A DNA stretch of 64,000 nt from Pocillopora damicornis (Eukaryota). Made by a program: the position numbers. Location: NCBI RefSeq assembly GCF_003704095.1, contig NW_020847750.1, positions 248,001 to 312,000 on the forward strand, in the 5' to 3' direction. This document shows positions 18,001 to 24,000 of this stretch, piece by piece (the first letter of the stretch is position 1; the number at the start of each line of letters is the position of its first letter).

Positions 18001-21000
18001 AACCTATTCCGGACCGGGAATACATAATTCAAGAGGAAATATATAAACAGAATGTTGAACCAGCGTTGAACCTATTACTACCACAGTAGAGCGAAGAAAC
18101 GATATGTCTCCCTCATTTGCACTTGGTCATACTCCGACTTATTGTCATCAAGGAACACCAACAGGGAATGAAAAGTACAGTGACTGAACATAAACTACAT
18201 GATCATAACCTTCCACGACGAAATTTCCTGTTCAGTGTCCATGTTCTATTTGGGTTCAGTCACACACTTAATTGAAGACACAGAGAAAAATTGCTTTTAA
18301 TTAAAGAGGAAATTTCCTTTAAAATCATCAATGGCAATGCCAGAAGCATAGCCTAGACATCTTCCAGAGACAAGTGGAATTTTACACCTCTGTGCTCTGG
18401 AGATTCTCTAATTTAGAAGCATTCTTGATGTCCTCCCTCTGAACTTCATCTTGTCCAATTATATACCAAGGTGTAATTTGAACTTCAGGTCTTGACTTTT
18501 ATACTTCCACTTAGTGTTCAAGTGACAAATCTTGTTTGTTTCTCTTCAGTACAAAGGTACTTGTCCTAAACTACCACAGAGAGAAAGGTGCTATATGGGG
18601 CTTCCTGTGAAATATTTGTAAAGAAGCATTTAGGAAATATTAAAACAAAACAATATAAATAATCTGGACAATCCATAGAATAACATGTTTATAATATTAA
18701 ATTATTACAAATTATATAGAATAAGACATTTTCGGTTAAACATGGTTGCTACAGCCATAGGTTTTTGAAATTCCCCAACAACTTTAAAATTTCCCTGACC
18801 AATTTTATGATTTCCCAAATTGGCTCTAGCGTTGACCTCCAACTACCCTCACAACCATTCTCTCCACCCAATTATTTATTAATATGATTTCAGTGAGTCT
18901 CATGCAAGGCAGATAAATTTATAGTTCCTTGAAAAAGGATTGATTTTGTTGGAAACCTAACACCTGCACCTCTTAATTTTTATGTACCAATATTTTAACA
19001 GTCCAGCGCGTTTGTTGTCTGCTTTTTGTACATTACAATTCAGTCTGGAATTTGATAGATGAAGGAAGAGCTATTAGGTGGATATGCTACAGTCTGTACC
19101 ACTTAAACCAAATTATATTTTTGTTCTATGTAAACCAATTTATTTACATTTCATGTCTATAAAAACCTACTTAAATACTTGAATTTGTAAAAAAAAAATA
19201 TTTTATCTAACTTCTCTGAAAAACATAAATTTTCACTGAATTAGTGTGGAGTTCCCTGAGTTTTCCCTGACCTTGAAGGACCCTTTTTTTCCTAACCATT
19301 TCCTGACTTGTGGGAAGATAAAGTTAAACTTGTACTTGAGCCAAGTTGCCCACCAAGCCAGAGTTTGTCTTCAGCTTGAAGCAACTAGAAGCCAAACCAA
19401 GGTCAACCCTCAAACGGAAAATAACATTCGATAACAGCGGGCTCTCGTTAGACAAAGAACTGTCGCTTAGTTTTGTTAAATACTTAAGTTCTGTTTGGGT
19501 AATAACTGCATAATGAAACGAGCCATCGTTGTTTTAAAAAAGGTTTCCTTACAAACTAAGTATTGTGCAGTGATATGAAATCTAAATTAGACAACAATGT
19601 TCGAATGATAAACAGAAAGATTAAAAGCATCGTAGGCACACAAAATGGCGGTTGGCGACTGATTAAGCGGTAAATCTAAACCATCCCATGTACCTTTTTC
19701 CTGCAGATTGCATCACGATGTTAACAGATGCATCGAAAGAAAATAAATTGAAGAACCGTTACATAATGTTCTGGACTCCGGAAAAACTCATTTACTGACC
19801 TAGACTTTAAGGCAAAGTTGAAAAACATACCTGAACCAAACGTGTCAATTCAACTGTTCTGTTATTTCTGTGCCAAAAATTTCGCCTCTATCACTCCTTG
19901 ATGACCACCATTTTGAGTACACGCGAAGACTAGTATCTATTAACTAATTTCCAATAGAATTATCGGTACATACGGCGGGTAATAACGAATAAACAGTGAA
20001 CATTTTGAATCGGGTACAAAAACCCTCGATTGCCGAAATGCTCGCTATGTTGTGACGTCACGTGGTTATCAAATCTGATAAATATCCCGAACTGGTTACG
20101 TTAATCAAAAGAAACTGTATTATAGTTCTGTGTCGGCGGGGGAAGGGAGAGGGAGGGGAGTATCAGGGAAGGGGGGGAAGGGTATTACAAGATTGTTTGG
20201 TTTTACCAACTGAGTTGATAAAGTGAACCAACCACCGTAAAGAGTTTCTTTGGCGTGTCGAGCATTAGTCCTTCGTCAGGGCGTCTGCTAACACTAGAAA
20301 CGGCAAAACCAGAGAAACAAATCAAGTAAAAACAAAAAAATAAAATGACCAAAACGAAACAACTCGGTGAAACGAATTTAAAAAATAAGTTAAAAGCAGT
20401 CAATAACAAGCCTGTCTACCCCGAAGAAGATCGAAAACGTCGAAAACGTCAGAAACTGATCTTGGCTAACATCCCGGGCGATGTAGAGGGGGAGGGGGGA
20501 ATTGAGCGCAATGAACAACTCTTTAACGATTTTATAATGCTTAAGTGCTTTTAATGGTTAACAATGGTTATAACAGTCTAATATGCGTATATAATAACGT
20601 TTTTTTACTTTTTTTTTAATAAGAATATTCGAAAAAGTAAGATCTTTACAGCTACGGTTCTAAACTGGGACAAAAGATCTAAAGAAGAAACTTAGACGGG
20701 AAATACTGACTATATGCGTGTAATTAGGTATAGGTAGGTTATATCACTTCAAAGAATTGAAGGCCTATATATGATGACTAACATTCATGAACTAATCTGG
20801 TTGTAGGTGAGTCTGTTTTTACTCACATTCTATCAGGGAAACAATGTCCTTCCAATGGAGACAGACACTATACTAAAAGAGACACTGATTTCATCCTATA
20901 ATCAAACCAAACTTTGACAGATGCAAGTGTCTTTTTAGTAAAGTACTCTTTCCATTATCATGGCTGCGTTGGTCATCATCATGACCAACATAATTATGGT

Positions 21001-24000
21001 TCCACAGATGATAACTTTACCACCTGAGATGTCAGCAGTACCATTCCAGTTTGGAGGCTTGTCAGACACTGCCAGTGTCTGGGTGCTGGTGCAGGCTTTA
21101 TTAGAACACGAGGCTAAGCTCTTCACCCAGACATTGTGTCCATCCACTTTCAAAGGTAGCACTCCCTGTTTTACAGCAGAGGTAAATTCTTCGATGGTTT
21201 GCTTGAAGTTGACAGATGGAGCGGATGTAAAGGCGATACCCAGGGCTTTCTTATCAGCTAATAAGACGACAATTTCCAGGTTTTCTGGATCTTGAACTCT
21301 CCCAGTATAGGCAAGCCAGTCCATTACATCTGAGTTCCACTTCAAGGCACTCGCAATGGCTGAGCCAACTCCGTCCGCGAATCGATTTTGAGCATTAGAT
21401 TCAGGAAGATTGTTAGTTGAGCGCCTTGATCGCAGCAAAAACTTTTCAATCTTCAGCTTGATCACTTTGACTGGGCTATCTTCCAGCTCTATGGATCTGT
21501 AGCATTTCCTGATGTTAGAATACCATGTACACTTCTCTCCTATATTCCACATTCCCTTGAGAGATTCCAAGACTGTGTCGACTTTGACAAAGGAGCCCTT
21601 GATGGACCAAAAGATCTGGAGGTAATTGGAACAGTCAAGATCACAGGCAGACAGTACACCATTTCCTGGATTCAGGTAACATGGTGTTTGAGAGGCAAAC
21701 GCCCTTTCTTGTATCTCCCCACAGGTTGAATGGATCCATGGCCGCAGTAGTGGCATCAGTGAGACTTGGAGGCATTTATGAACTCCAATAACCCAGTTTC
21801 GCGCGATTAAACTGAATTTTGCAAAGTTTTTGTCATCAAGCTTGCAAAAATGTTCAGCGTATTTGATTGCATATCCATTACTTGTGAATTCACAGGGATA
21901 CTTTCTCTCCAAGCAGTTGCGATACCAATAACAGGAATCCCCTGGTGGAATATAGCACTTAGAAGGCAGTAATGTGGTAGGCGTGAGAGTGCTTGGATTG
22001 CCGGAAGTACAGGAACAATCACTCGCCACTGATCCATTTCCCTTGCCATGCACTTCCAGCATACACGGATACCAGCAGTAGGTTGCAGCTCGGTCTTCAC
22101 AGTGGTCTTTTTGGTTGCCCTTTTGCTGGATGTATGCATCCGTCAAGCACGTCATCCACTGGTATTCGTCATTGTAGCTGCGCATTTGAATGCAATCAAC
22201 ACCCCCAGGGGGTCCAGAAAACTTGTTACACTGGGCAGCCCATCCCAATTTAACCACAAGTAAAAGCATAGAAGTAATAGCTAGCATCGTTCAAACCGAG
22301 AACCTGGGAAATGTAATTAGGCCATTTTAATATTAAGTATCNNNNNNNNNNNNNNNNNNNNNNNNNNNNNNNNNNNNNNNNNNNNNNNNNNNNNNNNNNN
22401 NNNNNNNNNNNNNNNNNNNNNNNNNNNNNNNNNNNNNNNNNCGGCAGAGAACACCACAAACCACAATGGACAAACAAAGAGTGAATAGGTTCTGTTATTC
22501 TTACGCGTAGAATGTTCATATTTCGAAATGTTTAGCGTTGTAGATCGATCATATTTCTTACTCCGTACTATTCCTTACAGCATGTTTAAATCAACCTAAC
22601 TTAACTCCGCGTCAGATAGCACCTGACGCTTTCACTAATTTTAAAATCGTTTACTTTTCTGGACACGTAAGCTTGGGCCGTGAGCTTAAGACACCTGTGC
22701 ATAGACAGAAAATTCGCTGTTGCTTCCGTAGTTTCCTAAAAATGCATTGTTTACCTGTATTCATCCAAAGCTAAGACAAATAATAACTGGTTAGTCTACA
22801 GCTGCTGGCCTGAATCCATCTCTTATTCAATTTTTCTTTAGGCCCAGGCACCTAATATATTAACCGTGCTACAACTTAGCAAAGTATAGACAGCTGGGTA
22901 ATTTTCGACGACTTACCAAAGCGCGATGTCTTTCGTTTCACTATTTATCTAAGTACCCGAGGTCTTAAAGGTTAAATAAGCACGTATTACGTCCACTCGG
23001 CCGATTTCTGCAACCGACCAGTAAATATATTGTCGCCAAAAGAACTTACAAAGCGTTTCGACTTTACTATTAAACAAAATAGTTTTACAGCAAGCGCACA
23101 CGCCGAGAACTTTGTGGTAAATTGAATCATTTTTCAAACTACGAAATGTCAAAGCCAGATAGGAAGCTAAACCATAAAAAGATCCTCTTAAATTTCATTG
23201 CAACTTAAAAACTTCAAATATTTTCAACTGAAGAGCTGTGTACAGTATTCGCATGGCGAAATTTGGCTCAAAGAAATGAACTCTGACAACAGTCCACGCG
23301 GAGCACAAGTATAGATTAATCAAACGAGGCCGAATGGTAAAAGACTGTAGCTGATTGCGGAATTGAAAGAGGCCTCGTGTAGCTACTTTTGAAATTCACG
23401 GTATCGTGACATCCTTCCACAGTTGAAATAAAGATGCTATGATCATGTTCTCTAGCTAGAAAACAATCGAACCTCGATTATCCAGACTTTTTTTCTCTGG
23501 TCCCAATTTTGTCATGAATATTTATTAGTCATGATCACGATCCGTAGCCATATTCTTTTCAAAACTACGCTTTCAAAAAGCAAAAGCAGCGCTCCCACGC
23601 GTCGTAACTTATTAAAAACATTTTTGTTCCTCATCAATGTTCATATTCTTGATTATCCGGAACCCCAATTCTCAAGACTATTTCGTCTAGTCCCAATGAG
23701 TCCGGATAATCGAGATAATATCACTGCAACACAAAAAGCACAACATTTTCAAAGAGCTGTGTACAGTGTTCGCATGGCGAAATTAGCTCGAAGCAATGAA
23801 ATTTCATGCTACACCCGCAATAATGCTTTGTAAAACTGAACTCTGATGACAGCCCACGCAGAGCACAAGTTTCGATTACTCAAGTGAAGCCGAATGGCTC
23901 GAGACTGTAGCTTATTGCAGAAGTGAAAGAGGTCTAGTGTAGCTCGTTTTGAAATTCACGGTATCGTGACATCCTTCCCCAGTTGAATTAAAGATGCTTT

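What the first reader, a model, noticed from the sequence alone, without database searches (positions are those of the whole stretch)
20935..22287. Membrane-anchored, potentially furin-released stanniocalcin-like protein
Seen in the sequence: signal peptide, an unnamed Cys-rich module (C..SGP.G.DCIQ...YQW.TCLTD.YI...CED...CWYPCMLE...DCSC), a Ser/Thr/Pro linker, a stanniocalcin-like Cys domain, RSRR, a ~110-aa alpha/beta domain, and a hydrophobic tail after small residues (NGTA). Established: vertebrate stanniocalcins are soluble Ca/phosphate regulators and pappalysin inhibitors, and R-X-R-R is a furin site. Inference: this is a GPI/TM-tethered precursor whose stanniocalcin-like ectodomain is shed. 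In a probably calcifying cnidarian, that would be an undescribed signalling or biomineralisation-related system.
Basis: partly seen in the sequence, partly recalled or inferred. Interest (0 to 1): 0.72.

Follow-up and report, generated by a model that had tools for sequence, protein, structure and literature searches.

The report
Surface-tethered stanniocalcin-fold protein of corals
An intact coral gene encodes a probably lipid-anchored cell-surface protein whose middle part looks like a distant relative of the hormone stanniocalcin; it belongs to a large unnamed animal family, and nothing ties it to skeleton building.

Summary
Window 20935-22287 (-) is one uninterrupted 450-aa ORF.

**Stanniocalcin likeness: real but remote.**
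- Pfam finds nothing in this protein, even at E<=1.
- An AlphaFold model of residues 108-268 (pLDDT 90) has STC2 chains at Foldseek ranks 1, 2, 3 and 5. TM is 0.46-0.55 and probability 0.85-0.98, but E is only 0.29-1.1.
- STC2 is the top PDB hit of two family profiles, at E 0.12-0.13.
- PF03298 is the only Pfam family hit by more than one of 122 distant relatives: 8 of 122.

**The family is large and unnamed.** 1826 clusters at 50% identity score E<=0.001. Named members come from stony corals, a sea anemone and two bivalves.

**The tail** looks like a GPI signal across the family, less clearly in this copy.

**The RSRR site**
- It is kept in 79 of 109 close relatives and 11 of 62 distant ones.
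- It lies in a loop inside the C-terminal alpha/beta domain, so cleavage alone need not release the ectodomain.

The biomineralisation link is unsupported. Verdict: partly supported, a new variant of a known kind.

The parts
20935..22287 (-). Complete single-exon coding sequence, 450 codons plus stop
   Evidence: 99% identical to P0001 over its whole length, 5 differences in 450 residues.
22237..22287 (-). Signal peptide, residues 1-17. Cleavage after G-W-A was judged by eye; no predictor was available.
   Evidence: Hydrophobic helix 2-14 in the model. An N-terminal hydrophobic stretch is visible in the rows of A1.
22006..22236 (-). N-terminal 8-Cys module, residues 18-94, mixed strand and helix, no known family
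   Evidence: Each of the 8 Cys is conserved in at least 98% of the sequences covering it. pLDDT blocks 76-92. No Pfam match.
21967..22005 (-). Ser/Thr/Pro-rich linker, residues 95-107
   Evidence: 11 of 17 residues S/T/P in 94-110. Length varies in A1. pLDDT 64-69.
21484..21966 (-). All-helical disulfide-rich domain, residues 108-268, remote stanniocalcin-fold relative. Ten near-invariant Cys plus one lineage-variable pair (C219/C262).
21052..21477 (-). C-terminal alpha/beta domain, residues 271-412. Element order is strand-helix-strand-strand-helix-strand-strand. Conserved Cys pair 394/399.
   Evidence: DSSP order and pLDDT 83-96. C394 in 203 of 204 and C399 in 202 of 202 sequences. No Pfam, PDB-sequence or Atlas match.
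21421..21432 (-). RSRR, residues 286-289, a proprotein-convertase (furin-type) motif followed by Ser
   Evidence: Only R-x-[KR]-R in the protein. pLDDT below 50 at exactly 286-289, between strand 273-283 and helix 296-314. Conservation counts.
20938..21045 (-). C-terminal anchoring signal, residues 415-450: small residues NGTA (415-418, also an N-x-T sequon), an 8-9 residue spacer, a hydrophobic stretch 425-445, then five residues

Best explanation
The gene encodes a secreted-pathway, cell-surface glycoprotein of a large, unnamed metazoan family. The family's fixed layout is:
- a signal peptide;
- an 8-Cys module;
- a Ser/Thr/Pro linker;
- a 10-Cys all-helical domain that is a distant relative of the stanniocalcin fold;
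- a roughly 140-residue alpha/beta domain next to the membrane;
- a short hydrophobic C-terminus, best read as a GPI-attachment signal.

In stony corals the loop between the first strand and first helix of the alpha/beta domain carries R-x-[K/R]-R followed by Ser. The likely course, all of it inferred:
1. The signal peptide is removed and the anchor added in the ER.
2. A furin-type convertase cuts at RSRR in the late secretory pathway.
3. Because the strand upstream of the cut belongs to the alpha/beta sheet, the N-terminal chain (8-Cys module plus stanniocalcin-like domain) stays held non-covalently on the anchored C-terminal chain. Notch heterodimerisation domains and other SEA-like domains behave this way after cleavage.
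4. Release, if it happens, needs a second event.

The stanniocalcin-like part would then act as a tethered binding module at the cell surface rather than as a free hormone.

Shown: the ORF, the domain order, the conservation, the fold likeness, the motif and its loop position.
Inferred: anchoring, cleavage, retention after cleavage, and binding function.
For: **Real, conserved gene**
-.
- The three-module layout is found in 109 of 120 close relatives and 62 of 148 distant representatives; the rest cover fewer modules and many are short.

**Stanniocalcin fold**
- Domain model pLDDT 90.2, pTM 0.84.
- Foldseek against PDB puts STC2 chains at ranks 1, 2, 3 and 5. TM by query is 0.55, 0.54, 0.46, 0.54 and probability 0.98 to 0.85. 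The best non-STC match has TM 0.35.
- The whole-protein model also gives STC2 the highest probability in its list, 0.95.
- STC2 is the top hit of profiles A1 and A2 against PDB sequences, E 0.12 and 0.13, with four Cys in register.
- PF03298 matches 8 of 122 relatives at E<=1, best 1.4e-4. Every other listed family matches one member only.
- Atlas feature search of residues 108-268: the two nearest clusters carry PF03298 in 20% and 12% of members, scores 0.88 and 0.84.
- Ten central Cys are each conserved in at least 97% of covering sequences. This fits the ten-cysteine hallmark described for stanniocalcins (PMC5654410, passages read).

**Anchor**
- A hydrophobic C-tail is present in 104 of 109 close and 51 of 62 distant full-length members.
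- The hydrophobic run has a median of 14-15 residues, with a median of 4-5 residues after it.
- A small-x-small motif lies upstream in 89 of 91 and 34 of 36 members that pass the tail test.

**Convertase site**
- Strict motif at the aligned place in 79 of 109 close members; any dibasic pair in 101 of 109.
- Low-confidence loop between confident elements.

**Module use**
- A partial relative, P0222, carries the same three modules and an RRRR-Ser site, followed by HRM and GAIN domains instead of the tail. This suggests an ectodomain unit mounted on different membrane stalks.
Against: - No single stanniocalcin test is statistically significant. Pfam gives 0 families for this protein at E<=1, both whole and as the domain alone.
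- Foldseek E-values are 0.29-1.1, with 0 matches at E<=0.001. HMM E-values are 0.12-0.13. The Atlas tool states that scores under 0.9 are leads only and were not calibrated for parts.
- In this copy the hydrophobic stretch is about 21 residues (425-445). By my strict tail rule, 11 residues follow the 15-residue run, so the window itself fails the '8 or fewer residues after' test. A single-pass membrane helix is not excluded for it.
- No GPI, signal-peptide or convertase predictor was available.
- That strand 273-283 sits in the C-terminal sheet is inferred from element lengths and order. I had no coordinates or contact map.
- The alpha/beta domain matched no SEA or Notch entry. No Pfam SEA hit, none among the 50 rows listed by the whole-model Foldseek search, and no Atlas hit.
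- The strict motif is missing in 30 of 109 close and 51 of 62 distant members.
Confidence: 0.55

Rival explanations
1. One reading: convertase cleavage at RSRR sheds the stanniocalcin-like ectodomain as a soluble hormone-like factor, and the anchored C-terminal piece is merely a pro-region.
For: - A strict furin-type motif followed by Ser lies in an exposed loop and is kept in 79 of 109 close relatives.
- No odd Cys suggests an inter-chain disulfide. The Cys counts are 8, 12 and 2 in the three modules.
- Vertebrate stanniocalcins are soluble (PMC5654410, passages).
Against: - The confident 11-residue strand just upstream of the cut (pLDDT block 94) is most simply the first strand of the C-terminal sheet. 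That would hold the chains together.
- The three-module layout and tail are conserved where the site is absent: 51 of 62 distant members, plus the anemone member, which has Pro after its basic residues. Cleavage is therefore not essential to the family's function.
Confidence: 0.2
2. The protein is a biomineralisation component or regulator specific to calcifying cnidarians.
For: - Most named relatives are stony corals: 13 of 14 named rows among the 120 listed.
- The two named non-cnidarian relatives are shell-forming bivalves.
- Fish stanniocalcin regulates calcium uptake (PMC5654410 abstract).
Against: - A full-length member at 51% identity occurs in the non-calcifying sea anemone Actinia tenebrosa.
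- The protein lacks the acidic or low-complexity stretches typical of matrix proteins. This is read from the sequence; that such stretches are typical is recalled.
- Text searches found no paper linking the family or its gene ids to skeletons.
- Named taxa are few because most database rows are unnamed, so distribution by calcification could not be tested properly.
Confidence: 0.05
3. The helical Cys-rich domain is not homologous to stanniocalcin. It is an unrelated disulfide-braced helical bundle that resembles it by chance or convergence.
For: - Pfam gives 0 families at E<=1.
- All E-values are non-significant.
- Sequence identity in the structural alignments is 16-19% with rmsd about 5 A.
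- Only four of ten Cys were aligned in register by sequence.
Against: - Four kinds of search (fold, profile against PDB, Pfam on relatives, language-model features) each put stanniocalcin first and nothing else repeatedly.
- The matches fall on the same stretch: family profile positions 140-212 against STC2 residues 73-144. The one relative whose Pfam coordinates I saw, P0268, matches Pfam model positions 65-128 with its residues 138-202.
- The structural alignment spans 157-162 columns of a 161-residue query and 167-172-residue targets.
Confidence: 0.25
4. The protein is a type I single-pass membrane protein, not GPI-anchored.
For: - In this copy, and in its 99% twin P0001, the hydrophobic stretch is about 21 residues and is predicted helical from 424 to 449.
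- No GPI predictor could be run.
Against: - Relatives have runs with a median of 14-15 residues, followed by a median of 4-5 residues.
- Small residues lie 8-10 positions upstream.
- Only five residues follow the stretch here, so there is no real cytoplasmic tail.
Confidence: 0.2
5. The intronless ORF (signal peptide, Cys-rich ectodomain, furin site, short second chain, membrane anchor) derives from a viral envelope gene or a mobile element.
For: - The layout superficially recalls cleaved envelope glycoproteins (recalled, not from any tool).
- The gene has no introns.
- A hAT transposase remnant lies 8.6 kb away.
Against: - Foldseek against predicted viral structures gave 0 matches at E<=0.001. 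No envelope protein is among the 50 listed, and all have TM by query of 0.17 or less.
- The part after the cut is a confident alpha/beta domain, not a long coiled coil.
- There are no flanking long terminal repeats around the gene, and no polymerase or integrase ORF of 100 aa or more within 12-32 kb.
Confidence: 0.02

Closest known systems
Vertebrate stanniocalcins STC1/STC2 (Pfam PF03298; solved as STC2 bound to PAPP-A, PDB 7y5q, 8a7d, 8a7e, 8hgh)
   Same: - Secretory-pathway protein with an all-helical, disulfide-braced core of about 160 residues.
- Ten conserved Cys.
- Best fold match, TM 0.52-0.55 over the whole domain.
- Four Cys and a C-Y-L motif align by sequence.
   Different: - Fails the Pfam model.
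- The domain is embedded between two other modules and tethered to the membrane, whereas stanniocalcins are free hormones of 150-300 residues (PMC5654410).
- The Cys that STC2 uses to bond covalently to PAPP-A, C120 (PMC11925022), has no Cys counterpart in the family column aligned.
Invertebrate and protist stanniocalcin homologues of Roch and Sherwood 2011 (PMC5654410)
   Same: - Very low sequence identity to vertebrate forms.
- Recognised mainly by the ten-Cys pattern.
- Reported in cnidarians and molluscs (passages read).
   Different: - Those are described as stand-alone secreted proteins.
- I could not obtain their sequences with the tools, so no direct comparison was made.
- No paper found describes a membrane-tethered, multi-module form.
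SEA-like juxtamembrane domains cleaved during maturation (Notch heterodimerisation domain cut by furin, dystroglycan, mucins)
   Same: - An alpha/beta domain next to the membrane.
- It is cut in an internal loop, so the two chains can stay together non-covalently (bioRxiv 10.1101/279315, passages read).
- Here the cut site lies between the first strand and first helix of such a domain.
   Different: - No sequence or fold match to SEA or Notch was obtained.
- This is a likeness of mechanism only; membership is not claimed.
GPI-anchored proteins processed by furin-type convertases (hemojuvelin/RGM, glypicans; recalled, no call)
   Same: A lipid-anchored ectodomain with a convertase site, giving two-chain or released forms.
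   Different: - The domains are unrelated.
- The comparison rests on recall only.
Adhesion-GPCR extracellular regions (HRM + GAIN)
   Same: One partial relative (P0222) places the same three modules in front of HRM and GAIN domains: Pfam E 4.1e-8 and 6.7e-12.
   Different: - The window protein has no HRM, GAIN or seven-helix part.
- P0222 ends inside GAIN and no longer form was found, which is weak evidence. A fused gene model is possible.

Membership tests
Stanniocalcin (Pfam PF03298) | Match to the family model at its curated threshold (23 bits) | tested here: not met
   - 0 families at E<=1 for the whole protein and for residues 108-268 alone.
- Among relatives, 8 of 122 match at E<=1, best 1.4e-4.
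- The one whose score I saw, P0268, had 16.4 bits, below 23.
Stanniocalcin (Pfam PF03298) | All-helical stanniocalcin core fold | tested here: met
   - STC2 chains rank 1, 2, 3 and 5.
- TM 0.46-0.55 by query, probability 0.85-0.98, 127-162 aligned columns.
- The next best fold has TM 0.35.
- E-values of 0.29-1.1 are not significant.
Stanniocalcin (Pfam PF03298) | Ten conserved cysteines in the stanniocalcin register (PMC5654410) | tested here: inconclusive
   - Ten central Cys are conserved in at least 97% of covering sequences.
- Four align with STC2 Cys by profile.
- The other six were not aligned by sequence, and disulfide pairs could not be read without coordinates.
Stanniocalcin (Pfam PF03298) | Free secreted protein of about 150-300 residues | tested here: not met
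   450 residues, with two further conserved modules and a hydrophobic C-terminal signal.
STC2-type covalent pappalysin inhibitors | Free Cys equivalent to human STC2 C120 (PMC11925022) | tested here: not met
   In the profile alignment, STC2 position 120 faces a non-Cys family column, and the window has no Cys between C172 and C189.
GPI-anchored proteins | A short C-terminal hydrophobic run reaching nearly to the end, with a polar spacer and small residues upstream | tested here: inconclusive
   - Family: 91 of 109 close and 36 of 62 distant full-length members have a run followed by 8 or fewer residues. Of those, 89 and 34 have small-x-small upstream.
- The window itself has NGTA, a spacer and a hydrophobic stretch, but 11 residues follow the strict 15-residue run, so it fails my rule.
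GPI-anchored proteins | Positive call by a trained predictor, or a described lipid-glycan on the mature C-terminus | not testable with these tools
Furin/proprotein-convertase substrates | R-x-[K/R]-R in an exposed loop of a secretory-pathway protein | tested here: met
   RSRR at 286-289 followed by Ser. pLDDT is below 50 at exactly 286-289, between confident elements.
Furin/proprotein-convertase substrates | Site conserved in orthologues | tested here: inconclusive
   - 79 of 109 close full-length relatives have the strict motif; 101 of 109 have any dibasic pair.
- 11 of 62 distant relatives have the strict motif.
- It is lost in one Stylophora paralogue and in the Actinia member.
SEA / SEA-like (Notch HD) domains | Sequence or fold match to SEA-type alpha/beta sandwich | tested here: not met
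   - No Pfam SEA match at E<=1.
- No SEA or Notch entry among the 50 rows listed by the whole-model Foldseek search.
- No Atlas hit for residues 268-414.
Coral skeletal organic matrix proteins | Detected in a skeletal proteome | not tested
   - Gene ids of six relatives occur in 0 searchable papers.
- Proteome lists are normally in supplements, which were closed.

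The most novel reading that the evidence does not exclude
This family is an unrecognised, ancient branch of the stanniocalcin superfamily in which the hormone-like fold is displayed on the cell surface. It sits between an unknown 8-Cys module and a cleavable alpha/beta stalk with a lipid anchor. In some animals the same unit sits on an adhesion-GPCR stalk. 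Reef corals would have added a convertase site, giving a Notch-like two-chain tether from which the stanniocalcin-like ligand can be released on demand. If so, tethered forms may be close to the ancestral way stanniocalcin-fold proteins worked. They could also be the missing partners of the invertebrate pappalysins reported in cnidarians (PMC11925022).
Probability: 0.15. Interest if true: 0.7.

Novelty: new variant of a known kind. Interest (0 to 1): 0.45.

Why it matters
Stanniocalcins still lack an agreed receptor. Outside vertebrates their function is unknown (PMC5654410; PMC11925022).

This family has at least 283 clusters at E<=1e-30 in the 50%-identity library. It places a stanniocalcin-like fold in a fixed three-module, membrane-tethered protein, and no Pfam model or paper that I could find describes it. 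That gives a concrete new object for asking what the fold binds. The question can be followed by expression and distribution in corals, anemones and bivalves.

It does not, on present evidence, bear on coral calcification.

Tried and rejected
- **Single-sequence searches:** Pfam and PDB-sequence searches of the protein found nothing.
- **Cluster lookup:** The taxa of nearly all distant members therefore stay unknown.
- **Fused forms:** a search for longer fused forms with the three-module part of P0222 found none at E<=0.001 among 894 candidates, which the tool itself calls weak evidence.
- **C-terminal domain:** the Atlas search of residues 268-414 gave no usable hit.
- **Second copy:** tblastn found no second copy or pseudogene of the gene in the 64-kb window.
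- **Literature:** six gene ids of relatives occur in 0 papers. 'stanniocalcin' with 'coral' gave 66 papers, and none of the 15 listed concerns a coral protein by title or abstract. 'stanniocalcin-like' with 'invertebrate' gave 2 papers. 'stanniocalcin', 'GPI-anchored' and 'furin' gave 0.
- **Chance ORF or pseudogene:** rejected.
- **Virus-derived envelope gene:** rejected.
- **Direct comparison with invertebrate stanniocalcins:** not possible.
- **Closed collections:** The genome-contig scan (bacteria and archaea only) was not used.

Full report
**1. What is there**

Window 20935-22287 on the minus strand is one open reading frame of 450 codons with no interruption.

The window is ordinary animal DNA of 33-44% G+C. 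Its other genes are:
- a homeodomain gene;
- two S10 serine carboxypeptidase genes;
- an HMG-box gene.

By its relatives the window comes from a stony coral of the pocilloporid kind. The best named relative is Pocillopora meandrina, at 77% identity. An unnamed record is 99% identical. I took no contig for human.

A 100-base N run (22342-22441) begins 55 bases upstream of the start codon. I left it alone, so the promoter and 5' UTR are unread.

**2.

All of them are present:
- a hydrophobic N-terminus;
- eight Cys in residues 20-93;
- a linker with 11 of 17 residues Ser, Thr or Pro;
- twelve Cys in residues 111-262;
- RSRR at 286-289;
- two Cys at 394 and 399;
- N-G-T-A at 415-418;
- a hydrophobic stretch 425-445, then five more residues.

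An AlphaFold model built on 34 relatives has mean pLDDT 80.1 and pTM 0.77. Its parts are:
- a small strand-and-helix N-module;
- an all-helical middle;
- a strand at 273-283;
- a disordered RSRR loop, where pLDDT drops below 50 at exactly 286-289;
- then helix, two long strands, helix and further strands;
- a terminal helix.

**3. It is a real, conserved gene**

- 189 proteins match at E<=0.001 among 3524 candidates.
- A profile of 34 members finds 1826 clusters at E<=0.001 in the 50%-identity library. Of these, 977 are at E<=1e-10 and 283 at E<=1e-30. Only the best 150 were shown, all below 1e-50, so I cannot say what the weakest ones are.
- The window protein keeps the majority residue in 45 of 46 columns that are at least 90% conserved.
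- Cys conservation: the eight N-module Cys, ten central Cys and the 394/399 pair are each kept in at least 97% of the sequences covering them. C219 (135 of 253) and C262 (121 of 198) look like an extra, lineage-specific pair.

**4. Who has it**

- Of the 120 rows listed, 14 carry an organism name.
- Thirteen are from seven stony-coral species.
- One is from the sea anemone Actinia tenebrosa, at 51% identity.
- A profile of 62 distant full-length members returned 17 hits, 3 of them named: the clam Mercenaria mercenaria, the scallop Mizuhopecten yessoensis, and the stony coral Oculina patagonica.
- Every source name is 'uncharacterized' or 'hypothetical'.

**5. Is the middle domain stanniocalcin-like?**

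Against:
- Pfam finds no family in this protein at E<=1, whole or as the domain alone.
- A single-sequence search of PDB sequences finds nothing.
- No E-value below is significant on its own.

For:
- A domain-only model (135 sequences in the alignment) has pLDDT 90.2 and pTM 0.84.
- Its Foldseek search of the PDB puts four STC2 chains at ranks 1, 2, 3 and 5. TM by query is 0.55, 0.54, 0.46 and 0.54, and probabilities run from 0.98 to 0.85.
- Those alignments span 127-162 columns. E-values are 0.29-1.1. No other fold exceeds TM 0.35.
- In the whole-protein search, STC2 had the highest probability of the list, 0.95 at rank 33.
- Two family profiles each have STC2 as the top PDB sequence hit, at E 0.12 and 0.13. 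Both align family positions about 140-214 with STC2 73-144, with four Cys in register.
- Among 122 relatives scanned one by one, PF03298 is hit by 8, best E 1.4e-4. No other listed family is hit by more than one.
- The language-model Atlas puts two PF03298-bearing clusters nearest to residues 108-268, at scores 0.88 and 0.84.

I read these convergent weak signals as probable remote homology at superfamily level. It is not membership of the curated family.

The Cys that human STC2 uses for its covalent bond to PAPP-A is C120 (PMC11925022, passages read). It has no counterpart in the family.

**6. The tail**

Family-wide it fits a GPI-attachment signal better than a membrane-spanning helix:
- 104 of 109 close and 51 of 62 distant full-length members have a hydrophobic C-terminal window.
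- By a stricter rule, 99 of 109 and 44 of 62 have a run of median 14-15 residues.
- 91 and 36 of these have at most 8 residues after the run.
- 89 and 34 of those have small-x-small residues just upstream.

Against my reading, this copy and its 99% twin carry a longer stretch of about 21 residues and fail the '8 or fewer' rule. A single-pass helix is therefore possible for this copy. No trained predictor was available.

**7. The basic site**

- The strict R-x-[K/R]-R motif occurs at the aligned place in 114 of the 219 sequences that cover it.
- Split by group, that is 79 of 109 close and 11 of 62 distant full-length members.
- Many other close relatives have K-R or R-R pairs there (101 of 109 with any dibasic pair). 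A dibasic pair in a 25-residue window is also fairly likely by chance.
- The site is absent from one Stylophora paralogue. In the anemone member it is spoiled by a following Pro.
- It is therefore a conserved feature of the stony-coral clade, not of the family.

**8. How it most likely works**

- The 11-residue strand before the site has a pLDDT block of 94. Only the C-terminal domain offers strands of matching length.
- With that strand included, the C-terminal domain reads strand-helix-strand-strand-helix-strand, with the cut site in its first loop.
- That the strand belongs to this sheet is my inference; I had no coordinates.
- If it is right, convertase cleavage gives two chains that can stay together without a covalent bond. 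This is described for the furin-cut Notch heterodimerisation domain and other SEA-like domains (bioRxiv 10.1101/279315, passages read).
- This is a likeness of mechanism only. No SEA or Notch match was found.

A partial relative, P0222, supports the idea of a surface-displayed module set. It has the same three modules and an RRRR-Ser site, followed by HRM and GAIN domains. No longer version was found.

**9. What is not supported**

- Shedding as a free hormone is possible but not indicated.
- The biomineralisation idea has no support. The family is present in a soft-bodied anemone, and no paper or gene id links it to skeletons. Skeletal-proteome supplements could not be opened, so that check is incomplete.
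- A virus-derived origin was considered and rejected.

**10. Novelty and verdict**

Stanniocalcins are described as free secreted proteins found widely in eukaryotes (PMC5654410, passages read). I found no description of a membrane-tethered, three-module form, and Pfam has no model for any of its parts.

I rate it a new variant of a known kind and of moderate interest.

Noticed in passing
window 22442-24825 and 13952-16369: The 2.4-kb stretch just upstream of the gene is bounded on both sides by 100-base N runs. It is an 81-94% direct copy of 13952-16369, offset about 8.49 kb. It is either a repeat or a small contig placed there by scaffolding, so the gene's true 5' flank is uncertain. The copy does not extend into the gene.
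   Followed up: partly
protein P0222 (unnamed record, 644 aa, partial): A family member with all three modules and an RRRR-Ser site continues into HRM and GAIN domains, like the outside of an adhesion GPCR, instead of ending in a hydrophobic tail. No longer form was found.
   Followed up: partly
proteins P0002, P0035; Desmophyllum, Oculina and Orbicella rows: Relatives sit in tandem in other corals. P0002 (524 aa) and P0035 (630 aa) read from one copy into the start of a second. Three Desmophyllum, three Oculina and two Orbicella members each share one contig length. The window holds only one copy.
   Followed up: partly
window 12014-12331 (-): A 106-aa ORF matches the hAT transposase C-terminal dimerisation region, E 9.3e-7. 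It is probably a transposon remnant.
   Followed up: yes
window 10967-11455 (+), N run 11264-11363: A homeodomain exon, Pfam E 2.1e-22. The same 17 residues are translated on both sides of the N run, which looks like an overlap left at an assembly gap.
   Followed up: no
window 9741-10220 (+) and 28040-28450 (+): Two ORFs without a Pfam match share a short S-I-E-S-L-L stretch. They may be upstream exons of two related homeobox genes.
   Followed up: no
window 41876-44354 (-) and 49212-50153 (+): Two S10 serine carboxypeptidase genes lie in opposite orientation, Pfam E 2.9e-54, 2.4e-31 and 7.4e-52.
   Followed up: partly
window 61818-63143 (-): A 442-aa uninterrupted ORF with an HMG box, E 3e-22, Sox-like.
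   Followed up: partly
window 28443-28831: Three tandem copies of a 130-base unit, 60-85% identical to the reference copy.
   Followed up: no
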